From UHGV virus genome UHGV-0853564: DNA of 43,023 bases. One strand, given 5' to 3'. The notes beneath the pieces were generated by a model. It made no database searches. It had not been told where the DNA came from and was given only the letters and a program-made list of their open reading frames with translations. Shown one piece after another: positions 1,825 to 30,017 of the stretch (positions are counted from its first letter, which is position 1; every line of letters begins with the position of its first letter). The DNA comes from a virus. The position numbers and the translations under genes are program-made.

Positions 1825-2203
1825 CTTCTCTGCCCTCAAATATTCCGTCTAAGCCCATGATAACCTCGGCTTCGAACAAACTTATGCCGTAACCGGCGAC
1901 ATCGCGAAACGCTGCCAAATCTTGCCATTTGAGCGCATCGCGCGGGATTATAACGATAGTATCATCTGTTTCGCGCTGTAGGAATTTAATGGCACGGTAT
2001 TTCTCGAACACGTCGATAAGAGAAACGGGGCATTCTGGCCCCGTCGCTTCTTTCATCTGCGGTTCTTTAATCACGCCCATTGCAATCAAAGCCGCCTGGT
2101 GGCCCGCCGCAATGTCATCGAATTGCTTACGTTTGTGGCGGTCGACAAAGCACCATTGCGCAAATTCATACAGCGCTTTTACTTTTCCGAGAGTCTCTCC
2201 CGG
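1817..2203 (-). CDS. tail assembly chaperone -1 frame extension (gpT-like part of a G-T fusion)
   Basis: -1 frame relative to the 2179..2595 ORF is open from a TAG at ~2206..2204 down to the stop at 1817 and overlaps the tape measure start; classic G/G-T arrangement. Confidence 0.5.
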   Translation of the reverse strand, partial: PGETLGKVKALYEFAQWCFVDRHKRKQFDDIAAGHQAALIAMGVIKEPQMKEATGPECPVSLIDVFEKYRAIKFLQRETDDTIVIIPRDALKWQDLAAFRDVAGYGISLFEAEVIMGLDGIFEGREDG

Positions 2204-4509: not shown

Positions 4510-4515
4510 GAAAAA

Positions 4516-4531
4516 GGCCCCAAACGGGGCC
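4516..4531. terminator. bidirectional rho-independent terminator (GGCCCC-AAAC-GGGGCC)
   Basis: Perfect 6-bp GC stem with T-runs on both strands; sits between convergent genes 4279..4509 (+) and 4538..5710 (-); near-identical hairpin at 36816..36831. Confidence 0.65.
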
Positions 4532-4537
4532 TTAGTT

Positions 4538-8946: not shown

Positions 8947-8971
8947 TTAGGAATCCTCTTAGTAAATGAAA

Positions 8972-8991
8972 AGAGGGACCGAAGTCCCTCT
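8972..8991 (-). terminator. stem-loop AGAGGGAC-(UUCG)-GUCCCUCU after capsid gene
   Basis: Perfect 8-bp stem with UUCG tetraloop on minus transcript, between capsid and Ig-like genes. Confidence 0.4.
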
Positions 8992-9007
8992 CGATTATAG
9001 CTTAACC

Positions 9008-10858: not shown

Positions 10859-11107
10859 CCTCACGTAATCCTGCAACATGAACACTTTCAGTCTCAGTTG
10901 CCGTACACATTCGGCGTTCCGGACGTCAATAGCTAAATCCTCGTCCGCGTCACTACTTGGTGGCGCCAGTTTGCACGGCGGCTGCATCATCGTCGTATCC
11001 GGGGATGGAATTGGCGTTTGCGACGGCGCGGGACTTGAGCAGGACGCGAGCATCGTCGAAAGTGCACACGCTGCGGCCAGGCGTTTTAATGTACTTAACG
11101 ACTTCAC
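10844..11107 (-). CDS. putative o-spanin (Rz1-like lipoprotein), overlapped with i-spanin gene
   Basis: Signal peptide with lipobox L-A-S-C followed by Pro-rich mature region; starts inside the 10953..11339 ORF in another frame. Confidence 0.5.
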   Translation of the reverse strand: MKSLSTLKRLAAACALSTMLASCSSPAPSQTPIPSPDTTMMQPPCKLAPPSSDADEDLAIDVRNAECVRQLRLKVFMLQDYVRNILE

Positions 11108-11339
11108 GGGTAATCACCTCTGATTTCGTCTTGCCTTCGTTGTCAGCGGCGGCGGCCTTTGATTCGTCCTGCTGCTGCCGTTGGGTTTTCTTCGCCAACT
11201 CCGCCTGTGCTTTCTGCTGTTGCTGCGAAACGAGATTAGCCCGGCCTTCGTTCCAGCCGGCGCGGTATTGATAGTAGCCGTGTGCATATAACAGGATGAT
11301 GAAACATGCTCCCGCTACGACAGTTGCTTTAAGATTCAT
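10953..11339 (-). CDS. putative i-spanin (Rz-like)
   Basis: N-terminal TM segment then Q/A/K-rich helical periplasmic region; contains the lipoprotein ORF in +1 frame. Confidence 0.5.
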   Translation of the reverse strand: MNLKATVVAGACFIILLYAHGYYQYRAGWNEGRANLVSQQQQKAQAELAKKTQRQQQDESKAAAADNEGKTKSEVITREVVKYIKTPGRSVCTFDDARVLLKSRAVANANSIPGYDDDAAAVQTGATK

Positions 11340-11363: not shown

Positions 11364-11383
11364 GCCCCGCCTTAAAGCGGGGC
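11364..11383 (-). terminator. stem-loop GCCCCGC-N6-GCGGGGC followed by T-rich tract on minus strand
   Basis: Perfect 7-bp GC stem, immediately upstream of the i-spanin start. Confidence 0.4.
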
Positions 11384-13504: not shown

Positions 13505-13514
13505 ACTATAAGAA

Positions 13515-13530
13515 AGCCCCTTTCGGGGCT
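13515..13530 (-). terminator. intergenic stem-loop (GNRA loop on minus transcript) between portal and head morphogenesis genes
   Basis: agcccc-tttc-ggggct on plus strand. Confidence 0.3.
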
Positions 13531-13540
13531 ATAGGTGAAC

Positions 13541-15034: not shown

Positions 15035-16306
15035 TTAAAGTGCGAAAGTCACCGGGACGTTAATAACTGGTTTGCGAATCGGCATTTCATACGCGATAGG
15101 GTATGTGGTTCCATCATTCTGGTGGTCCACACCACCTGATTTATCCGGTTCGCCGTTTTTGTCGTAAGCCTGTTGCTCAAGGCATCGCGCCGTAACCGGG
15201 CAAGCCTGCTCGTTAATCATGACCATACCAGATTCAAGCGCCTTGTTCATTGCTGATACGCGGTCTTTAACCGGCGGGTTTGTTGATTTGGCGCGTACTT
15301 CGAAACCAGCCTGCTGTAACTGAGCGATGTCCGAGGTGCTGGCATTATTACTTTTACGGTTTTTGCCGCTGGCGTCCGGGTACATAACGATATAGTGGCC
15401 TTTACTTTTCCACCTCTCAGTTATGGCTCGCACTACGTCAGGCGTATCGAACATATCAACCAACTCGGCAACAGCATGCCAGACTTTACCACGTTGCACG
15501 TAAACTGTACTCGCCATGTGACCTACGTTAAAGTCCTGCCCGATATACAGAGTCTCGCCAGGTTTGATTGTTTCGCGACTGCTGTTTTTCCTGCGGTCGT
15601 AAGCATAGTAGACCGTTCCAGCCGTGAGGTTTACGAACTCGCCGTTGATGTAGGCGTCAATCAATTGCCCCGGGTAGGTGTCGCGCAATGACTGCACATA
15701 ATCTTCTGGCAGGAACGGGTTAGACAGGGTGGACGCCTGAATCATCTCATAGCCAGGATTCTTTTTGACCACCCAGCGGTCATGTACAAAACGGAATCCT
15801 TCCGGCGTAGTGAACACGGAAACGGTATTAGCCGGTTTTGGCGTAATAGGCTTATACGTCCGCGGCAACTGGCGGTTACGGGCGATGACTTTGTTCCACG
15901 CGTGCTCGGCGTGTTCCATGTTAAGAGTGTCCAACTCGTCGATTTTTGCACGAAACGATTCGTAACCGACGATTCGTGCTGGATTATCGAGTGTACGCAG
16001 GACAAAATCACCGAATTGTCCGGATGACGTATAGATTATGTTGTCGGACTTGTTGTATTTGTACCTCACGCCCCAGTCGGTGAGTTTTTCTTCCATACGA
16101 GGTGCAAGGATAAGGCGCACCAGGTCATAAGTCGGCTCGTACATGGCGATGATAGAATCGCTACCGCCTTCCATGCTGTCGAGCAGTGCTGAGTTGCACA
16201 TAACTTCGGATTTACCGGTACCAAATCCCGCTACGAAGGCGGGGAACTTGCAGTGCATACCGAGAAACGCGCCTTGCGGTTCTGTCGCCGTGATATTAAC
16301 GTTCAC
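15035..16306 (-). CDS. terminase large subunit
   Basis: Walker A-like FVAGFGTGKSEVM near N-terminus; nuclease-type acidic motifs (IGQDFNVG, MYPDASG) C-terminally; track start is GTG. Confidence 0.8.
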   Translation of the reverse strand: MNVNITATEPQGAFLGMHCKFPAFVAGFGTGKSEVMCNSALLDSMEGGSDSIIAMYEPTYDLVRLILAPRMEEKLTDWGVRYKYNKSDNIIYTSSGQFGDFVLRTLDNPARIVGYESFRAKIDELDTLNMEHAEHAWNKVIARNRQLPRTYKPITPKPANTVSVFTTPEGFRFVHDRWVVKKNPGYEMIQASTLSNPFLPEDYVQSLRDTYPGQLIDAYINGEFVNLTAGTVYYAYDRRKNSSRETIKPGETLYIGQDFNVGHMASTVYVQRGKVWHAVAELVDMFDTPDVVRAITERWKSKGHYIVMYPDASGKNRKSNNASTSDIAQLQQAGFEVRAKSTNPPVKDRVSAMNKALESGMVMINEQACPVTARCLEQQAYDKNGEPDKSGGVDHQNDGTTYPIAYEMPIRKPVINVPVTFAL

Positions 16307-16805
16307 CGGGCACCACCTTAATTGTTACTTCACTGATTGGCTCGTCGCGTACTTCTTCGGTGGCAACAGTTTTATTCAGCCCCAGCTTAGCTGCGGCAAA
16401 CGTAGCAGAGATACCCGCGGCCCCTGTCTCGGTGAAATACGCCTCTTCCAGTGCCTGTGCTGTCTCCCAGGCTTCTGCAAATGCGGGAATCTCGCGCAGC
16501 CACAGCTTAATAATCGGGATAGTGACGCCGATGTGCAGGGCAAAGCGGGCCAGCGACGGTGGTTTGTCCTGAATCAGCGGGCGTTCGTCACCCTTAGACG
16601 TAGGCACAAGCTCCCATGACGTGCGGTCAAAGAAACGAATCAATTCGTCGCAATAGTCCGGGTCCCACAACGCGGCGGAATTACGGGATGATTGATAAAG
16701 GCTCTGTTTACCGCGCGGTCGTTTACGGCGACGGTTTGCGCTAACAGCTTCTTCATGTGCAGCTTGCACCACCTCTGGCGATGGCTGCTTGAGTTTCAGC
16801 TTCAT
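16296..16805 (-). CDS. putative terminase small subunit
   Basis: Overlaps large terminase start; internal ATG (MKLKLKQ...) with AAGGGG RBS preferred over track start 16844. Confidence 0.5.
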   Translation of the reverse strand: MKLKLKQPSPEVVQAAHEEAVSANRRRKRPRGKQSLYQSSRNSAALWDPDYCDELIRFFDRTSWELVPTSKGDERPLIQDKPPSLARFALHIGVTIPIIKLWLREIPAFAEAWETAQALEEAYFTETGAAGISATFAAAKLGLNKTVATEEVRDEPISEVTIKVVPGER

Positions 16806-16903
16806 AGAATCCCCTTGCATATGCGTCTGACCATCAGAGCGCATCAGACGCGCCCTACGCGTCTAAAGGGATTATATAAGGGGATTGGGCGGGATGTACA
16901 GAA

Positions 16904-16923
16904 AAGCCCTCAGTAGAGGGCTT
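16904..16923 (-). terminator. rho-independent terminator upstream of terminase genes
   Basis: aagccctc-agta-gagggctt hairpin followed by U-rich tract on minus transcript. Confidence 0.45.
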
Positions 16924-16932
16924 GTGGTGCGG

Positions 16933-17088
16933 TTATTCGGTTATATCTCCGCCGTCTACCAGTGCGATTGGTATTCTGACTTCACCGTTGAATGTTTCGG
17001 CATACCAGAACTTCTCGCACTGCGTTACACTGAAAACATCTAGTTCTGACGTAGCGCCTGTTTTCCAGTAGACAGTTAACTTTTTCAT
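16933..17088 (-). CDS. small hypothetical protein (51 aa)
   Basis: ATG 17088..17086 overlapping upstream stop (ATGA); below track cutoff. Confidence 0.3.
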   Translation of the reverse strand: MKKLTVYWKTGATSELDVFSVTQCEKFWYAETFNGEVRIPIALVDGGDITE

Positions 17089-17321
17089 CCCCCACTCCCC
17101 CCTTTAGCAATGCGTTGCTCTGTTTTAGTGATACCCCGGCGCGTGAATAACACCGGGCTTGTCTTAACGTGCGTCATCAGACGGTTGTTATAAATTACGT
17201 GGCGCTCGCAAGCTACGTCTTTGCTGTACTTCGCAATCGTCATTTCGTTGATGCCGGTTTGTCGGCATGTCTCGGCCATCGTGCCGTATTCTTTAATCAG
17301 GTTCGGAATGCTGGTAATCAT
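17085..17321 (-). CDS. small protein with possible HTH
   Basis: Track ORF starts at GTG 17345; internal ATG 17321 forms ATGA overlap with upstream small ORF. Confidence 0.4.
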   Translation of the reverse strand: MITSIPNLIKEYGTMAETCRQTGINEMTIAKYSKDVACERHVIYNNRLMTHVKTSPVLFTRRGITKTEQRIAKGGSGG

Positions 17322-17488
17322 CCTACGAAATTCCTCGTTGTCCACATCGCATTTGGATATTTGTTATCGCGGTCCTGCACTACAGCAATCATGTCACCGC
17401 GTTGCACCAGGCAGAAGTGCCGCTGTTGCTCGCCGTTGTAGCGGCGCCAGATTGCTTCTTCGATTGCTGAGTTAATGTCACTAAACAT
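17318..17488 (-). CDS. small hypothetical protein (56 aa)
   Basis: ATG at 17488..17486; stop overlaps next start. Confidence 0.3.
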   Translation of the reverse strand: MFSDINSAIEEAIWRRYNGEQQRHFCLVQRGDMIAVVQDRDNKYPNAMWTTRNFVG

Positions 17489-17576
17489 TAGTATCTACCC
17501 CACAGAAATCCAACCAACAGCCCGATGAAGTAGCTGAGACCCACCAGACTGATAACCACCTCGAGGTCCATACTCT

Positions 17577-17759
17577 CTACCCCACTATCTCATCACCAAG
17601 CCACGCCGTTTCTCGTATATCGTCAACCACGCAGGCGGCATGCTCACGGCTAATTGCAAAAATGTAGAAGCTAAACTTCTTCCCGTCAGCGTCGATGTGG
17701 TTAACCGAGTAAGGTTTCCACAGGACGCCCTCGATAACTACTGGTTCAGGCGCTTTCAT
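17577..17759 (-). CDS. hypothetical protein
   Basis: ORF track; part of leftward small-gene operon. Confidence 0.4.
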   Translation of the reverse strand: MKAPEPVVIEGVLWKPYSVNHIDADGKKFSFYIFAISREHAACVVDDIRETAWLGDEIVG

Positions 17760-17931
17760 TCTTCATGCGCTCAAGCAACAACTTAAACGCCTCCAGTTGA
17801 AATTCACCGTTAATTGACAGTTGTCCGCATAACGTCTGTTTCTCGGACTCAAGCACCAGAATACGACGCTCGAGTGATGCGATTGTGATTTTAGGCATGA
17901 CGCTGCACCCCGCATTTAACACACTGCCCAC
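17746..17931 (-). CDS. hypothetical protein (coiled-coil-like)
   Basis: ORF track; internal Met (MPKITIAS...) may be true start. Confidence 0.35.
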   Translation of the reverse strand: MGSVLNAGCSVMPKITIASLERRILVLESEKQTLCGQLSINGEFQLEAFKLLLERMKNESA

Positions 17932-18136
17932 ACATATCCTTTGGATTGTAGTCGAACTCGTGTTCGCACTTGTTCAGGTTGAAGCGGTTAATAAGTTCAC
18001 GGCGTGTCTCATAAAGCGACTCAACCATTTGCTCGGCTACCGCGATTTTAGTATTCAGGACATGCATCACGTGGCTGATGTCTACGCCACCGTTAACAGC
18101 CTCCACCATCATCTTTTCGTATTCGTTATTGGTCAT
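17891..18136 (-). CDS. hypothetical protein with C-terminal Cys cluster (zinc-ribbon-like)
   Basis: CEHEF...CGQCVKCG motif. Confidence 0.4.
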   Translation of the reverse strand: MTNNEYEKMMVEAVNGGVDISHVMHVLNTKIAVAEQMVESLYETRRELINRFNLNKCEHEFDYNPKDMCGQCVKCGVQRHA

Positions 18137-18308
18137 TGTTCACCACCTCAAATACGCACTCACTTTCGAAGCCTTCAACTTCAAGAGAGTTATTGAGGTA
18201 GAAGGCTCCAACTCGATACCCATAACTCGGTAGCGCGACGGCTTCGTACACCCCGTTTAGGGTAAGCTCGGCCCAATCACCCTTAAGAAACACACATTTT
18301 ACTTTCAT
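18126..18308 (-). CDS. hypothetical protein
   Basis: ATG at 18308..18306 inside conserved GGAGAGAAGAAATGA junction. Confidence 0.45.
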   Translation of the reverse strand: MKVKCVFLKGDWAELTLNGVYEAVALPSYGYRVGAFYLNNSLEVEGFESECVFEVVNNDQ

Positions 18309-18460
18309 TTCTTCTCTCCCCACATGCGATTGAGATACTTGTTCTTGTCCGGCCCCGGGAAACTGTTGCGTTTCATCAGTTCCTCGCGTGTCGGGAACGG
18401 GGTGTGATTAACCTTACGTCCTACTCGTAATGGTTGGCTCACTGGACCTTGTTCGCTCAT
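18305..18460 (-). CDS. hypothetical protein ending GEKK
   Basis: Start and stop both lie in copies of the conserved junction. Confidence 0.45.
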   Translation of the reverse strand: MSEQGPVSQPLRVGRKVNHTPFPTREELMKRNSFPGPDKNKYLNRMWGEKK

Positions 18461-18651
18461 TTCTTCTCTCCTGCGAGTTCCATATTGAATACAATACGAA
18501 CGTTTTCCAGGGGCGTAGTACCTACTAGCTTTGCCGCGTAAGCCCCCGCATCTCCAGATTGGTGAAACTGGCCGCAATCAACATACTCATCCCCGTTGAA
18601 AAAAGAAACAACGAAACAACCTTTACCAACTTCCGTAACTATATTTTTCAT
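18457..18651 (-). CDS. hypothetical protein ending GEKK
   Basis: As above. Confidence 0.45.
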   Translation of the reverse strand: MKNIVTEVGKGCFVVSFFNGDEYVDCGQFHQSGDAGAYAAKLVGTTPLENVRIVFNMELAGEKK

Positions 18652-18797
18652 TTCTTCTCTCCTGCATAAGCTGCTTTAAGTGTCTGCATCGCGGCGAACC
18701 AGAACGCAGCCGCGGGGATGCTGTTGCTCAGGTTACTAACGGCGATGCGTGCCATCAGCTGTGCGTCTTTGAATGCTTCGATGTCTGTGATTTTCAT
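18648..18797 (-). CDS. hypothetical protein ending GEKK (49 aa)
   Basis: ATG at 18797..18795; below track cutoff. Confidence 0.35.
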   Translation of the reverse strand: MKITDIEAFKDAQLMARIAVSNLSNSIPAAAFWFAAMQTLKAAYAGEKK

Positions 18798-18881
18798 CTT
18801 TTCTACTCCGTTCTCGTTGTCGGTGGAGTAAATATAGTAGGGTCGCAGGTAATAGTCAACTAGTCATCGCAGATGATAGAT

Positions 18882-18913: not shown

Positions 18914-19129
18914 AAAACTGGAGAGCAGAGGGGTGGAACATTAGGTTGGTGAAACCAGTATGAAGCTGCCGTTGTTGGGTGTCAACCCTCGCCGTAGCCG
19001 ACAGACTCGTCGATATCGTCCCGCGACTTAACCGGGTTGGTAAACTCTTGTAACGCCATAGTGGCCTCCAATAAGCAAATACGAAAAACTTGGCATGAAC
19101 AGAATACTAAACGCCTTCGTATTCGTCCA

Positions 19130-19615
19130 TCATTTTACTGCACGTCCGATAGCCTCCGCCTCCTGCCACGGTCTACCGTCGAACAGCGCCAGACGGCCTG
19201 CTGTACGGCGGCGCAGGCCGAGTAACGGTTTGCCGTTCTGGTTGATGAACAGCGCCAGTTTAGCCCGCAGAGTCGCGGTATCACCAGAACGCAGCGCCCT
19301 ACCCGTGCCGGTAGTAGCTGCAATCACACCTGCGCCAGCGTTGTAGACCAGGTCGCACACTGCATCGAACTGTGCCTGTGTCATCGAATGGTGTGCCGCC
19401 GCATCGACAGCGGCTACAGCCTTAGCCATGTCACGGTTCAGTAACAGGAGGCCCTGCCCCGGTGTGATGGTCTTACCGGGTGTTACGTCTGGGCCGTAGT
19501 GACCGTACCCGATAGTCAGGTACTTTTCGTTCGGCGTAGCGCGATACGCAGTTCCGCGGAATCCCTCGAATGCAGCGGTGAAATGCAACCCATTATCTGA
19601 AATGTTTCGAGACAC
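19130..19615 (-). CDS. endolysin (phage lysozyme-like)
   Basis: Motif FEGFRGTAY...YLTIGYGH resembles T4-lysozyme-family active-site region; GTG at 19615 with GGAGGA RBS preferred over TTG track start 19666. Confidence 0.6.
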   Translation of the reverse strand: MSRNISDNGLHFTAAFEGFRGTAYRATPNEKYLTIGYGHYGPDVTPGKTITPGQGLLLLNRDMAKAVAAVDAAAHHSMTQAQFDAVCDLVYNAGAGVIAATTGTGRALRSGDTATLRAKLALFINQNGKPLLGLRRRTAGRLALFDGRPWQEAEAIGRAVK

Positions 19616-19865
19616 GCTTATGTCCTCCGTATGACAGCCACGCCTGGCGAATCTGGCGCAGCGCAACTAATGTGATTAATGTCTCAGGCAACGTTGGTGA
19701 CATGCTGCCCTGTAACAGGTGGATACATCCGGCGGCACAGACAATAGCGGTCAGGATATAGAGCACCCGACCAAATAGTCCGTCGTCTATACTCGGATGA
19801 TACACGTTAAACAGCGATGTGCCTCCGATTGCCAGCATACCGCCGAACCAGAATAACTCATTCAT
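19593..19865 (-). CDS. holin-like membrane protein (second of pair)
   Basis: Internal ATG at 19865 overlapping upstream stop; ~90 aa with hydrophobic segments. Confidence 0.5.
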   Translation of the reverse strand: MNELFWFGGMLAIGGTSLFNVYHPSIDDGLFGRVLYILTAIVCAAGCIHLLQGSMSPTLPETLITLVALRQIRQAWLSYGGHKRVSKHFR

Positions 19866-20166
19866 CCGGGCCTCCTCGACGTGCGATGTATTCTCCGGCG
19901 ACGATGCCAGAAAGGCGGGAATAGATAGGCATCCAGAGAATGGCAATGATGAAGCCCAGGCCGGCGATTTCACGGTCACCCGTGATGCCGAACCATTGAG
20001 CTGCCAGAGGTGCACCAAATACGGCGCAGGTGAAGCCGGTTGCGATAAAGCAGAAGCCGTCAACAGGGCCGGAAATGACGGTCTTATGTTGCCGTAGTCC
20101 GATTACCCCTCCGGCTAGCGCGGCAGCCAGAAGCCACCCCGTCACTGTTTCAGTAAATTTATCCAA
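19858..20166 (-). CDS. holin-like membrane protein
   Basis: 102 aa with multiple hydrophobic TM-like segments, immediately upstream of endolysin. Confidence 0.55.
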   Translation of the reverse strand: MDKFTETVTGWLLAAALAGGVIGLRQHKTVISGPVDGFCFIATGFTCAVFGAPLAAQWFGITGDREIAGLGFIIAILWMPIYSRLSGIVAGEYIARRGGPDE

Positions 20167-29784: not shown

Positions 29785-30017
29785 TTCGTAGGATGTTCAG
29801 GGTGCTTGGCGGACTTGTAGCGTTTTTAAGCTACCACTTTATGATGTTGCCGGTTTATTCTCTGCTTTTTCCATTAATAGCCTATCTTGCGATTAAGCAT
29901 AAAACCGTAGAACTGGACGAGTTAATGGAGGTTAAGGAGATGAAGTTTGTTCAGAATTTGGAGTGGCCTTTCGAATACGTATTGATAGTTGAGAAAATAA
30001 CTGGCTGGAAGGGTTGA
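29781..30017 (+). CDS. small membrane protein
   Basis: GAGGAGGA RBS; hydrophobic segments LGGLVAFLSYHFMMLPVYSLLFPLIAYLAI. Confidence 0.45.
   Translation: MIRRMFRVLGGLVAFLSYHFMMLPVYSLLFPLIAYLAIKHKTVELDELMEVKEMKFVQNLEWPFEYVLIVEKITGWKG

What the first reader, a model, noticed from the sequence alone, without database searches (positions are those of the whole stretch)
16806..16932. Terminator plus overlapping inverted repeats immediately upstream of the terminase genes
A minus-strand terminator (16904..16923) ends the leftward small-gene operon just before the small terminase gene. Next to it, overlapping inverted repeats (gcgtctga / tcagacgc and agacgcg / cgcgtct, ~16823..16864) lie at the 5' edge of that gene. 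This is where a late promoter or activator site, or a pac/cos-proximal recognition site, would be expected.
Basis: inference. Interest (0 to 1): 0.4.

Follow-up and report, generated by a model that had tools for sequence, protein, structure and literature searches.

The report
Conserved two-hairpin leader before terminase genes
The gap in front of this phage's DNA-packaging genes holds a transcription stop signal, a restart promoter and a small two-hairpin RNA leader that is conserved, with compensating mutations, across several genera of enterobacterial phages and matches no catalogued RNA family; what the leader does is not known.

Summary
The window is a Kagunavirus-like phage genome, and every relevant gene is on the minus strand.

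The 127-bp gap is a conserved module with four parts:
- an intrinsic terminator;
- a sigma-70-type promoter (-35 16900..16895, -10 TATAAT 16876..16871);
- a 5' leader that starts at about 16864;
- the terS ribosome-binding site and AUG (16805).

The leader is two abutting hairpins. Hairpin B (16843..16822) was missed.

The hairpins recur in Kagunavirus, Jerseyvirus, Cornellvirus, Dhillonvirus, Eiauvirus and unclassified relatives, whose TerS is only 24-27% identical. Stems covary: 96% of cells pair, and 8 of 12 pairs change on both sides. G·U pairs occur on the sense strand only. Loops (NWGGG and YGG) and their 17-18 nt spacing are conserved. This marks an RNA element, not a pac site or operator on double-stranded DNA. 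Rfam has no match, and there is one copy per genome.

Function is inferred: most likely a cis-acting leader that gates terS and late-operon expression. Put-like antitermination is the interesting rival.

The parts
16904..16923 (-). Intrinsic terminator hairpin AAGCCCUC-UACU-GAGGGCUU. The G+C core is 16921..16916 paired with 16911..16906. The U-tract UUUUCUGU (16905..16898) runs into the -35 hexamer.
   Evidence: The stem covaries: CCCUC/GAGGG in Kagunavirus, CCCGC/GCGGG in Jerseyvirus, a G·U variant in L050, CCUGCC/GGUGGG in Dhillonvirus. The homologous hairpin in Envy is listed by the scanner.
16895..16900 (-). -35-like hexamer TGTACA (4 of 6 matches), 18-nt spacer.
   Evidence: Invariant in Kagunavirus and Jerseyvirus. 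Replaced by TTGCCT, TTGCCA or TTGCTA at 17 nt in Cornellvirus-like phages, and by a TGn extended -10 in Dhillonvirus.
16871..16876 (-). -10 hexamer TATAAT.
   Evidence: TATAAT or TACAAT in every lineage examined, while the spacer diverges.
16863..16866 (-). Predicted transcription start, most likely A16864, 7 nt after the -10. This is inferred, not mapped.
   Evidence: Inference from the usual sigma-70 spacing. Hairpin A begins 6-10 nt after the -10 in all lineages.
16846..16864 (-). Leader hairpin A: AGACGCG-UAGGG-CGCGUCU. It can extend by U16865·G16845 and U16866-A16844.
   Evidence: The six inner pairs are paired in 39-42 of 42 distinct sequences, with 13 different stem versions. Loop is NWGGG in 28 of 29 cores.
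16822..16843 (-). Leader hairpin B: UGCG-C-UCUGA-UGG-UCAGA-CGCA. It has a lower stem, a bulge, an upper stem and a UGG triloop.
   Evidence: The five upper pairs are paired in 41-42 of 42 sequences, with 7 stem versions (UCUGA/UCAGA, UAUGA/UCAUA, GCCGA/UCGGC, GCGUA/UACGC and others). The apex GA-YGG-UC is nearly invariant.
16823..16851 (-). It is an alternative pairing created by a Kagunavirus-specific tandem quasi-repeat (GCGUCUGAUG/CGCUCUGAUG).
   Evidence: I4, D5. Broken in Jerseyvirus (UCAUACGC) and absent in other genera.
16865..16886 (-). Two pyrimidine-rich stretches: AAUCCCCUU (16886..16878) and UAUAAUCCCUUU (16876..16865). Both are complementary to the terS ribosome-binding site and AUG. 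They would be present only in RNA that reads through from upstream.
   Evidence: (I2, I3).
16803..16816 (-). terS translation start region: AAGGGGAUUCU then AUG. The Shine-Dalgarno GGGGA is 16814..16810 and the AUG is 16805..16803.
   Evidence: The MKLKLK / MKIGK start is conserved in all relatives.
16296..16805 (-). Small terminase gene (169 aa from ATG 16805).
   Evidence: phrog_3064 'terminase', E = 5e-75. Annotated as small terminase in relatives.

Best explanation
The 16806..16932 gap is a compact, conserved boundary module for the packaging and structural ('late') operon.

(1) An intrinsic terminator stops transcription coming from the strongly promoted upstream cluster of small accessory genes.

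(2) A host sigma-70 promoter directly behind it restarts transcription.

(3) The new transcript begins, within 0-3 nt, with two abutting RNA hairpins (A and B). Their stems are free to change, but their loops (NWGGG and YGG) and the loop-to-loop spacing are fixed.

(4) The terS ribosome-binding site follows 8-15 nt later and stays open.

Most likely working (inferred): the leader acts in cis at the RNA level as a gate for terS and late-operon expression.
- Transcripts started at this promoter carry a 5'-terminal stem-loop. This is the type known to slow 5'-end-dependent decay. They also have an accessible ribosome-binding site.
- Transcripts that leak through the terminator also contain the -10/discriminator sequence. 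In many lineages this pairs with the ribosome-binding site and AUG (helix P1 of a three-way junction) and hides it.
- The conserved loops imply a conserved binding partner that has not been identified. It is probably a host machine such as RNA polymerase or the ribosome, because the loops are kept across phages whose TerS is only about 24-27% identical.

Shown: the terminator, the promoter signature, the RNA-level conservation of the hairpins, and single copy per genome.
Inferred: the transcription start, the stabilising and translational roles, and the partner.

The confidence given (0.55) is for the whole statement. By part I put it at about 0.95 for the terminator, 0.8 for the promoter, 0.9 for the hairpins being a selected RNA structure, and about 0.4 for the specific stability-and-translation gate as opposed to the rivals listed.
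For: Identity and context:
- The window is 92-94% identical to Kagunavirus phages.
- Gene order on the minus strand is lysis genes, small genes, then terS, terL, portal, head and tail genes.

Terminator:
-; covariation.

Promoter:
- in the window.
- The hexamers and their spacing are kept while the spacers diverge across genera. Variants are TGTACA-18, TTGCCW-17 and a TGn extended -10.

Hairpins:
- They are present upstream of terS in Jerseyvirus, Cornellvirus, Dhillonvirus, Eiauvirus, and Pantoea, Enterobacter, Hafnia and Klebsiella phages.
- Pair counts: 96.1% of cells paired against 81.9 +/- 1.4 in shuffles (0 of 500 reach it). 8 of 12 pairs change on both sides. Slid controls give 18-49%.
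- Anchor-based counts on 42 distinct sequences: 93.5% paired over hairpin A's seven pairs and 99.5% over hairpin B's five upper pairs.
- Strand test for hairpin A: 247/252 paired with 32 G·U on the sense strand, against 216/252 with 1 G·U on the antisense strand.

Folding:
- Single-sequence folds of the predicted leader give hairpins A and B in most lineages.
- The mean unpaired probability of the ribosome-binding site drops in read-through RNA in most lineages: 0.47 to 0.17 in the window, 0.79 to 0.33 in W5, 0.65 to 0.17 in L077.
- P1 complementarity beats 95% of background 20-mers in 6 of 12 lineages.
- The Jerseyvirus -10 change TATAAT to TACAAT is matched by AUUAUA to AUUGCA.

Specificity:
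- 59 structure-compatible matches in 2.9 million viral contigs, all in phages of this group. Those inspected directly lie just upstream of terS. There were 10 unpaired chance hits.
- One copy per genome.
Against: - No transcription start has been mapped for any phage of this group (literature searches found none).
- The -35 in this window is weak (4 of 6) with an 18-nt spacer.
- A plain stabilising hairpin would not need conserved loops or fixed spacing, so a stability or translation role leaves the most conserved features unexplained.
- P1 is absent or not significant in Cornellvirus W5, L075, Pantoea AH01 and eiAU. In L173 I read a closing helix that pairs upstream of the ribosome-binding site and does not cover it.
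- Pyrimidine-rich discriminators and purine-rich ribosome-binding sites are partly complementary for compositional reasons.
- The related sequences are not independent samples. The shuffle control ignores phylogeny, as the tool itself warns.
Confidence: 0.55

Rival explanations
1. Put-like processive antitermination. The two-hairpin RNA folds as it leaves RNA polymerase and stays bound to it, alone or with a factor. This makes polymerases that started at this promoter resistant to the intrinsic terminators inside the roughly 20-kb late operon. Polymerases arriving from upstream are stopped.
For: - The arrangement resembles HK022 putL: two stem-loops that begin at about +3 of the transcript, acting in cis over more than 10 kb by binding the beta' zinc-binding domain (PMC9378689).
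- The downstream operon has strong intergenic terminator-like hairpins at 13530..13515, 11383..11364, 8992..8971 (after the major head gene), 4533..4514 and 2045..2024.
- There is no other sigma-70-like promoter on that strand between 16871 and 4140 (gene identities).
- Dhillonvirus Envy is built the same way, with terminators at 29935, 27075, 24242 and 20493.
- Loops are conserved across phages of different Enterobacterales hosts, which fits a host partner such as RNA polymerase.
- Some distant TerS relatives have a -10 followed by a hairpin with a U-tract directly upstream of terS. This is a design that needs antitermination (L199, L202, L204).
Against: - There is no sequence or size similarity to put RNAs: about 45 nt against about 70 nt, and no Rfam hit.
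- Here the loops are the conserved part. From memory, put RNAs depend mainly on stems and bulges.
- There is only one copy per genome.
- Partial terminators after major head and tail genes are common in phages that have no antitermination system.
- The first internal terminator lies 3.3 kb downstream.
Confidence: 0.2
2. Operator for a phage protein. The loops are bound by a conserved phage protein (TerS itself, another packaging or head protein, or an N-like factor) that represses or activates terS translation or modifies elongation.
For: - The element is strictly linked to one TerS family and always lies 15-20 nt from the terS start codon.
- Loop-specific conservation with free stems is typical of hairpins recognised by proteins.
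- More distant TerS homologues lack the motif.
Against: - TerS is only 24-27% identical between the window (and its Jerseyvirus relative) and the other lineages, while the loops are unchanged.
- The gene upstream of the module is variable, so there is no conserved neighbouring regulator.
- No candidate RNA-binding protein was identified.
Confidence: 0.15
3. A site on double-stranded DNA. The repeats, or the conserved boxes AGGG and GATGGTC about two helical turns apart, would be a pac recognition site for TerS or an operator or activator site at the late promoter.
For: - In lambda (cosB) and SPP1 (pacL/pacR), terminase recognition sites lie at or just upstream of the small-terminase gene (established knowledge).
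- These phages package by the headful route, so a pac site should exist somewhere (PMC10783031).
- The two conserved boxes keep a fixed linear spacing of 17-18 nt.
Against: - Both-sided compensatory changes in the stems, and 32 G·U pairs on one strand only, are not expected for recognition of double-stranded DNA.
- There are no repeated identical boxes, as would be expected for an oligomeric TerS.
- The direct repeats seen in this window are not conserved outside Kagunavirus.
- PhageTerm found no defined termini in a Kagunavirus (PMC9825357).
- No second copy sits at any other promoter.
Confidence: 0.07
4. The inverted repeats are chance matches of no function.
For: Each repeat is only 7-8 nt long. 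A single 8-mer repeat in 300 nt is not very improbable on its own.
Against: - Counts exceed shuffles and the fold z-score is -4.4.
- The hairpins are conserved with covariation across genera.
Confidence: 0.01

Closest known systems
HK022 putL/putR antiterminator RNAs
   Same: A cis-acting phage RNA made of two adjacent stem-loops. It starts at the very 5' end of a transcript from a sigma-70 promoter and sits ahead of a long operon that contains terminators (PMC9378689).
   Different: No sequence similarity, and about 45 nt instead of about 70 nt. It has simple hairpins with conserved G-rich loops, rather than bulged stems with a triplex. It lies at the late (terminase) operon of virulent siphoviruses, not at the early operons of a lambdoid phage. 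There is one copy per genome, not two. No activity has been tested.
Lambda nut sites (boxA + boxB) and the PR'-qut-tR' late control region
   Same: A promoter-proximal leader element at the head of a long phage operon. Hairpin A is a G+C-rich stem with a pentaloop, like boxB. The module couples a terminator with a late promoter.
   Different: The order here is terminator then promoter, not promoter then terminator. The loop is YAGGG, not the GAAAA type. The boxA-like CGCUCUGA in this window lies inside a stem and is not conserved. No N- or Q-like protein was identified.
5'-terminal stabiliser stem-loops (E. coli ompA 5' UTR type)
   Same: A hairpin that begins within a few nucleotides of the predicted 5' end of the mRNA, upstream of an open ribosome-binding site.
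   Different: Stabiliser hairpins need no particular loop sequence. Here the loops and the spacing of two hairpins are the conserved features. The 5' end is predicted, not mapped.
Terminase recognition sites next to the small-terminase gene (lambda cosB, SPP1 pacL-pacC-pacR, P22 and P1 pac)
   Same: Location at the 5' edge of terS in a phage that packages by the headful route. Short conserved boxes at fixed spacing.
   Different: The conservation pattern is that of single-strand hairpins on the sense strand. There are no repeated TerS boxes and no terminus data.
cabRNA of staphylococcal phages (structured RNA from the terminase genes, sensed by CBASS; PMC10686824)
   Same: A structured phage RNA associated with the terminase locus.
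   Different: As I recall the paper, cabRNA is a transcript several hundred nucleotides long from within the terminase genes of Gram-positive phages. This element is a 45-nt 5' leader, and no link to immunity is known.
Rfam families (release 15), including the two-hairpin TwoAYGGAY motif
   Same: Two hairpins with GG-containing loops.
   Different: No Rfam model matches, even at E <= 10. The loops are NWGGG and YGG, not AYGGAY.

Membership tests
Intrinsic (Rho-independent) terminator | G+C-rich hairpin followed by a U-tract on the transcribed strand, downstream of a stop codon | tested here: met
   A 6 G-C plus 2 A-U pair stem with a 4-nt loop, then UUUUCUGU, starting 9 nt after the UAA stop. 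The scanner missed it in the window but lists the Envy homologue.
Intrinsic (Rho-independent) terminator | Stem maintained by compensatory change in relatives | tested here: met
   CCCUC/GAGGG, CCCGC/GCGGG, CCCGC/GUGGG and CCUGCC/GGUGGG. The U-tract is invariant.
Intrinsic (Rho-independent) terminator | Transcripts end at the U-tract | not testable with these tools
   Needs 3'-end mapping.
Sigma-70 promoter | -10 TATAAT and a -35-like hexamer at 16-18 nt | tested here: met
   TGTACA-18-TATAAT, 10 of 12 matches. The -35 is weak.
Sigma-70 promoter | Hexamers and spacing conserved while the spacer diverges | tested here: met
   TAYAAT in all lineages. TTGCCW at 17 nt or a TGn extended -10 in other genera.
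Sigma-70 promoter | Mapped transcription start | not testable with these tools
   No transcript-end data were found for this phage group.
HK022 put antiterminator RNA | Two stem-loops at the start of the transcript | tested here: met
   Hairpins A and B abut and begin 6-10 nt after the -10.
HK022 put antiterminator RNA | Sequence and structure homology to putL/putR (about 70 nt, bulged stems) | tested here: not met
   The element is about 45 nt and made of simple hairpins, against about 70 nt with bulges and a triplex in putL. No direct alignment to put sequences was made.
HK022 put antiterminator RNA | Terminator read-through that depends on the beta' zinc-binding domain | not testable with these tools
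   Needs transcription assays.
Lambda-type nut site | Single-stranded boxA (CGCUCUUA) upstream of a boxB hairpin with a GNRA-like pentaloop | tested here: not met
   CGCUCUGA occurs only in Kagunavirus and lies inside stem B. Loop A is YAGGG.
pac / cosB terminase recognition site | Conservation consistent with recognition of double-stranded DNA (repeated boxes, no strand bias) | tested here: not met
   Stem covariation and sense-strand-only G·U pairs. The direct repeats are not conserved.
pac / cosB terminase recognition site | Packaging termini or TerS binding map to the site | not testable with these tools
   The literature gives headful packaging without coordinates.
Any Rfam 15 family | Covariance-model match | tested here: not met
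   No match at gathering score in the whole window. At E <= 10 there is only a chance 13.7-bit hit on the opposite strand.
Structured cis-regulatory leader RNA (generic kind) | Conserved secondary structure with compensatory changes, fixed position relative to one gene, strand-specific | tested here: met

The most novel reading that the evidence does not exclude
The leader is a new, compact class of polymerase-licensing RNA (put-like in logic but unrelated in sequence). Only RNA polymerases that start at the terS promoter acquire it. They then read through the four or five intrinsic terminators of the late operon. This would give virulent siphoviruses that have no polymerase or sigma factor of their own a way to run a 20-kb late operon.
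Probability: 0.2. Interest if true: 0.8.

Novelty: new variant of a known kind. Interest (0 to 1): 0.55.

Why it matters
Guernseyvirinae and Dhillonvirus phages are among the commonest small siphoviruses isolated on E. coli, Salmonella and Klebsiella. They are widely used in phage-therapy and biocontrol work. The papers found here say essentially nothing about how they control late gene expression.

A 45-nt RNA element conserved at the head of the late operon gives a concrete handle that can be mutated. TerS relatives were found in about 700 sequenced phage genomes, and every representative checked down to about 38% TerS identity carries the motif. Members of both groups grow on E. coli K-12 derivatives (BASEL collection, PMC11990801), so the predictions can be tested directly.

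Practical consequences:
- It corrects the terS start codon used in part of the public annotation.
- It shows that the boundary module, not the gene upstream of it, is the unit exchanged between mosaic genomes.

Tried and rejected
Rejected because the 8-nt repeat is broken outside Kagunavirus.
- **boxA/nut reading** of CGCUCUGA. Rejected because it lies in a stem and is not conserved.
- **RfaH ops, CsrA (GGA loops) and anti-Shine-Dalgarno mimicry.** Checked by eye against the loop consensus. None fits. The Hafnia loop is CAGAG.
- **Coding explanation** (N-terminal extension of TerS from ATG 16844, or an upstream ORF). The ATG is in frame in four lineages. It is out of frame, stopped or absent in Dhillonvirus, Hafnia, Klebsiella, L075, L077 and eiAU. 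The covariation is structural, not codon-based.
- **Second copies elsewhere in the genome.** None found with two covariance models, filters off.
- **Rfam.** No family matches.
- **Prophage relatives.** These would show whether the leader follows TerS into other regulatory contexts. No TerS relative was found in 185,579 species genomes with the one pattern the tool could derive. The first attempt failed because the alignment was too divergent.
- **MAFFT alignment of all lineages.** It shifted the Dhillonvirus rows by one or two columns. The official pair count therefore uses 19 non-Dhillonvirus rows. Dhillonvirus is covered by the loop-anchored count.
- **Literature.** No terminus coordinates, transcription starts or any earlier description of this leader were found.

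Full report
**Context.** The window is a near-complete genome of a Kagunavirus-like siphovirus (Guernseyvirinae). Region 16300-17400 is 92-94% identical to E. coli phages 590B, XY2 and fEg-Eco19.

All genes around the finding are on the minus strand. In the direction of transcription the order is:
- holin and endolysin (20166..19130);
- a cluster of about a dozen small ORFs (18797..16933), which includes a NinH-like protein;
- the 127-bp gap that is the finding;
- terS (phrog_3064 'terminase', E = 5e-75), terL (Terminase_6N/6C), portal, head morphogenesis, scaffold, major head and tail genes.

**Observation.**
- Read on the minus strand, the first is AAGCCCUC-UACU-GAGGGCUU followed by UUCUGU. 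It starts 9 nt after the stop codon of the last small ORF.
- Perfect 7- and 8-nt inverted repeats are about 20-fold more frequent in 16700-17000 than in shuffles (5 against 0.28, and 2 against 0.08).
- The 146-nt RNA folds with z = -4.4.
- The consensus scanner did not list the terminator in the window. I attribute this to its U-count rule after stem extension. It lists the homologous hairpin in Envy.
- The scanner did find a promoter-like site between terminator and leader: TGTACA (16900..16895), an 18-nt spacer, then TATAAT (16876..16871). This was the best of four such sites in 4 kb.

**Anatomy on the sense strand.** After the -10 come CCCUUU and then AGACGCG-UAGGG-CGCGUCU (hairpin A, 16864..16846). 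It is followed, with no unpaired bases between the extended stems, by UGCG-C-UCUGA-UGG-UCAGA-CGCA (hairpin B, 16843..16822). Then come AUAUGCAAGGGGAUUCU and AUG (16805).
- The MKLKLK start with its GGGGA ribosome-binding site is conserved in all relatives.
- The ATG at 16844, which some GenBank records use as the terS start, lies in the base of hairpin B and has no ribosome-binding site.

**Comparative evidence.** I collected the terS-upstream region from these sources:
- 50 IMG/VR contigs related to the window;
- Dhillonvirus and Cornellvirus contigs;
- GenBank phages of Shigella, Salmonella (Cornellvirus W5), E. coli (Dhillonvirus Envy, SP1), Pantoea, Enterobacter, Hafnia, Klebsiella and Edwardsiella (Eiauvirus eiAU);
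- a further 80 contigs found with a TerS profile.

The same layout recurs wherever TerS is at least about 38% identical to the Cornellvirus-like profile query. The layout is terminator, -10, hairpin A, hairpin B, ribosome-binding site, terS. TerS identity to the window protein falls to 24-27% across these lineages. The genes upstream of the module differ from phage to phage, and the conserved block starts at the terminator.

**RNA-level signature.**
- I anchored on the two loops and used 42 distinct sequences. The six inner pairs of hairpin A are standard pairs in 42, 42, 42, 42, 40 and 39 sequences. The five upper pairs of hairpin B are standard pairs in 42, 42, 42, 42 and 41. Each position shows up to six pair types.
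- Sliding the partner by 1-3 nt drops pairing to 17-53%.
- On a gap-free MAFFT alignment of 19 sequences from eight lineages, the pair-count tool gives 96.1% paired cells against 81.9 +/- 1.4 in shuffles (0 of 500 reach it). Eight of 12 pairs change on both sides. The covariation score is 0.398 against 0.120. Slid controls give 18-49%. The tool warns that related sequences can beat shuffles. The slid controls and the number of independent stem versions argue that this is not the explanation here.
- There are 13 different versions of stem A, for example GACGCG/CGCGUC, AGAUGG/CCGUCU, GUGGCC/GGCCAC and AGGUGG/CCACCU. There are 7 versions of upper stem B: UCUGA/UCAGA, UAUGA/UCAUA, GCCGA/UCGGC, GCGUA/UACGC, UGCGA/UCGCA and others.
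- Hairpin A has 32 G·U pairs when read on the terS sense strand. It would have 31 extra mismatches if read on the other strand: 247/252 paired against 216/252.
- The loops are nearly fixed. NWGGG occurs in 28 of 29 distinct cores, and the exception is CAGAG in Hafnia. UGG occurs in 28 of 29. CGG (L077) and a G·U closing pair (L078) are seen in sequences outside that set.
- The distance from loop A to the apex of B is 17 nt in 26 cores and 18 nt in 3. Yet the segments on either side of the two loops vary in length.

Together these features mark a strand-specific single-strand structure, that is, an RNA. They do not fit a protein site on duplex DNA.

**Promoter.**
- TATAAT or TACAAT is present in every lineage, 6-10 nt before the first paired base of hairpin A.
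- The spacer sequences differ completely.
- The -35 position carries TGTACA (18 nt) in Kagunavirus and Jerseyvirus. It carries TTGCCT, TTGCCA or TTGCTA (17 nt) in Cornellvirus-like, Pantoea, Enterobacter, Hafnia and Klebsiella phages.
- Dhillonvirus instead has a TGn extended -10.
- This is the classic footprint of a working sigma-70 promoter. The start at about 16864 is inferred from spacing only.

**Specificity and novelty.**
- A covariance model built from Kagunavirus and Jerseyvirus finds one copy in the window (81 bits; the next best hit is 11 bits).
- A broader model finds one copy each in the window and in the whole Envy genome.
- The pattern TATAAT-N12-17-WGGGS-N16-GATGGTC matched 69 stretches in 2.9 million viral contigs. 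59 have the hairpin complementarity, and all 59 come from this phage group. Those I inspected lie directly upstream of terS. The other 10 lack the complementarity and are chance hits.
- Rfam 15 has no matching family.
- Literature searches found no description of this leader.
- More distant TerS homologues lack the motif.
- No TerS relative was found in bacterial genomes.

**A second layer, seen in passing.** In RNA that reads through from upstream, the -10 hexamer plus discriminator (and in Kagunavirus also AAUCCCCUU in the spacer) is complementary to the ribosome-binding site and start codon.
- This closes a three-way junction around hairpins A and B.
- The duplex is stronger than with 95% of background 20-mers from the same locus in Kagunavirus, Jerseyvirus, Dhillonvirus, L077, Hafnia and Klebsiella. 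It reaches 12-14 contiguous pairs in some. It is not stronger in Cornellvirus W5, L075, AH01 or eiAU.
- The Jerseyvirus change TATAAT to TACAAT is matched by AUUAUA to AUUGCA.
- The computed accessibility of the ribosome-binding site falls in the read-through isoform in most lineages.
- This suggests a translational lock on leaked transcripts. The evidence is weaker than for the hairpins.

**Mechanism.**

Shown:
- a terminator;
- a promoter signature;
- a conserved RNA structure at the predicted 5' end;
- an open ribosome-binding site in the short isoform.

Inferred:
- the leader acts in cis to gate terS and late-operon expression through 5'-end protection and isoform-specific translation;
- its conserved loops bind a conserved partner.

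The most interesting rival is put-like antitermination.
- The late operon has intergenic terminator-like hairpins after the portal gene, ahead of the spanin/scaffold genes, after the major head gene and after a 390-aa tail gene. No other sigma-70-like promoter lies on that strand for 12 kb.
- Envy is built the same way.
- HK022 putL has the same promoter-proximal, two-stem design.
- Against this, there is no homology to put, the conservation is in the loops, and no activity data exist.

It is not excluded for the wider region, because no terminus coordinates exist.

**Verdict.**
- It is not supported for the repeats, which are part of an apparently undescribed, widely conserved two-hairpin leader RNA whose function is unknown.

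Noticed in passing
window 16842-16844 (minus strand ATG) and 16803-16805: Some public records start terS at the ATG at 16844, giving a 182-aa ORF. That ATG lies in the base of leader hairpin B and has no ribosome-binding site. The conserved start is ATG 16805 (MKLKLK, SD GGGGA). The upstream ATG is in frame in four lineages. It is out of frame, stopped or absent in six others.
   Followed up: partly
window 16865-16886 with 16803-16816 (minus strand): The -10 hexamer plus discriminator, and a second copy in the promoter spacer, are complementary to the terS ribosome-binding site and AUG. The pairing would form only in read-through RNA. It is significant in 6 of 12 lineages and has one compensatory change in Jerseyvirus. 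It may be a translational lock on leaked transcripts.
   Followed up: partly
window 16924-17100 and loci L002-L051 upstream of the terminator: The genes directly upstream of the terminator are mosaic: at least five unrelated sequences occur among close relatives. Everything from the terminator onward is conserved. The terminator therefore marks a recombination and module boundary.
   Followed up: partly
window 13515-13530, 11364-11383, 8971-8992, 4514-4533, 2024-2045 (minus strand): Strong terminator-like hairpins sit in intergenic gaps inside the head-tail operon. One gap (13505-13540) leaves no room for a promoter. Terminator-like sites number 34 against 19.5 +/- 4.2 in shuffles. Several are bidirectional.
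   Followed up: partly
window 18957-18985 and 18831-18859 (minus strand): Two near-consensus sigma-70-like promoters (TTGACA-17-CATACT and TTGACT-17-TATATT) head the small-gene cluster that ends at the terminator. This suggests that the cluster is transcribed strongly and probably early.
   Followed up: no
window 10953-11339 (minus strand): An Rz-like spanin gene lies inside the head-gene module, 8 kb from the holin and endolysin genes (19130-20166). Dhillonvirus Envy has the same split arrangement.
   Followed up: no
L199, L202, L204 (about 60-90 nt upstream of terS): Distant TerS relatives from metagenomes lack the two-hairpin leader. Instead they have a -10 (one of them an extended -10) followed by a hairpin with a U-tract directly before the terS ribosome-binding site. 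This is a lambda PR'-tR'-like attenuator layout.
   Followed up: no
window 16836-16842 / 16846-16852 (minus strand): A Kagunavirus-specific tandem quasi-repeat (GCGUCUGAUG/CGCUCUGAUG) creates a 7-of-8 match to lambda boxA (CGCUCUGA). It is not conserved in other genera and lies within a stem.
   Followed up: yes
window 19443-19483 (plus strand): The first covariance model gives a weak hit (10.6 bits, E about 0.7) containing GAUGGUC. It lies inside the endolysin gene on the opposite strand and is judged to be chance.
   Followed up: partly
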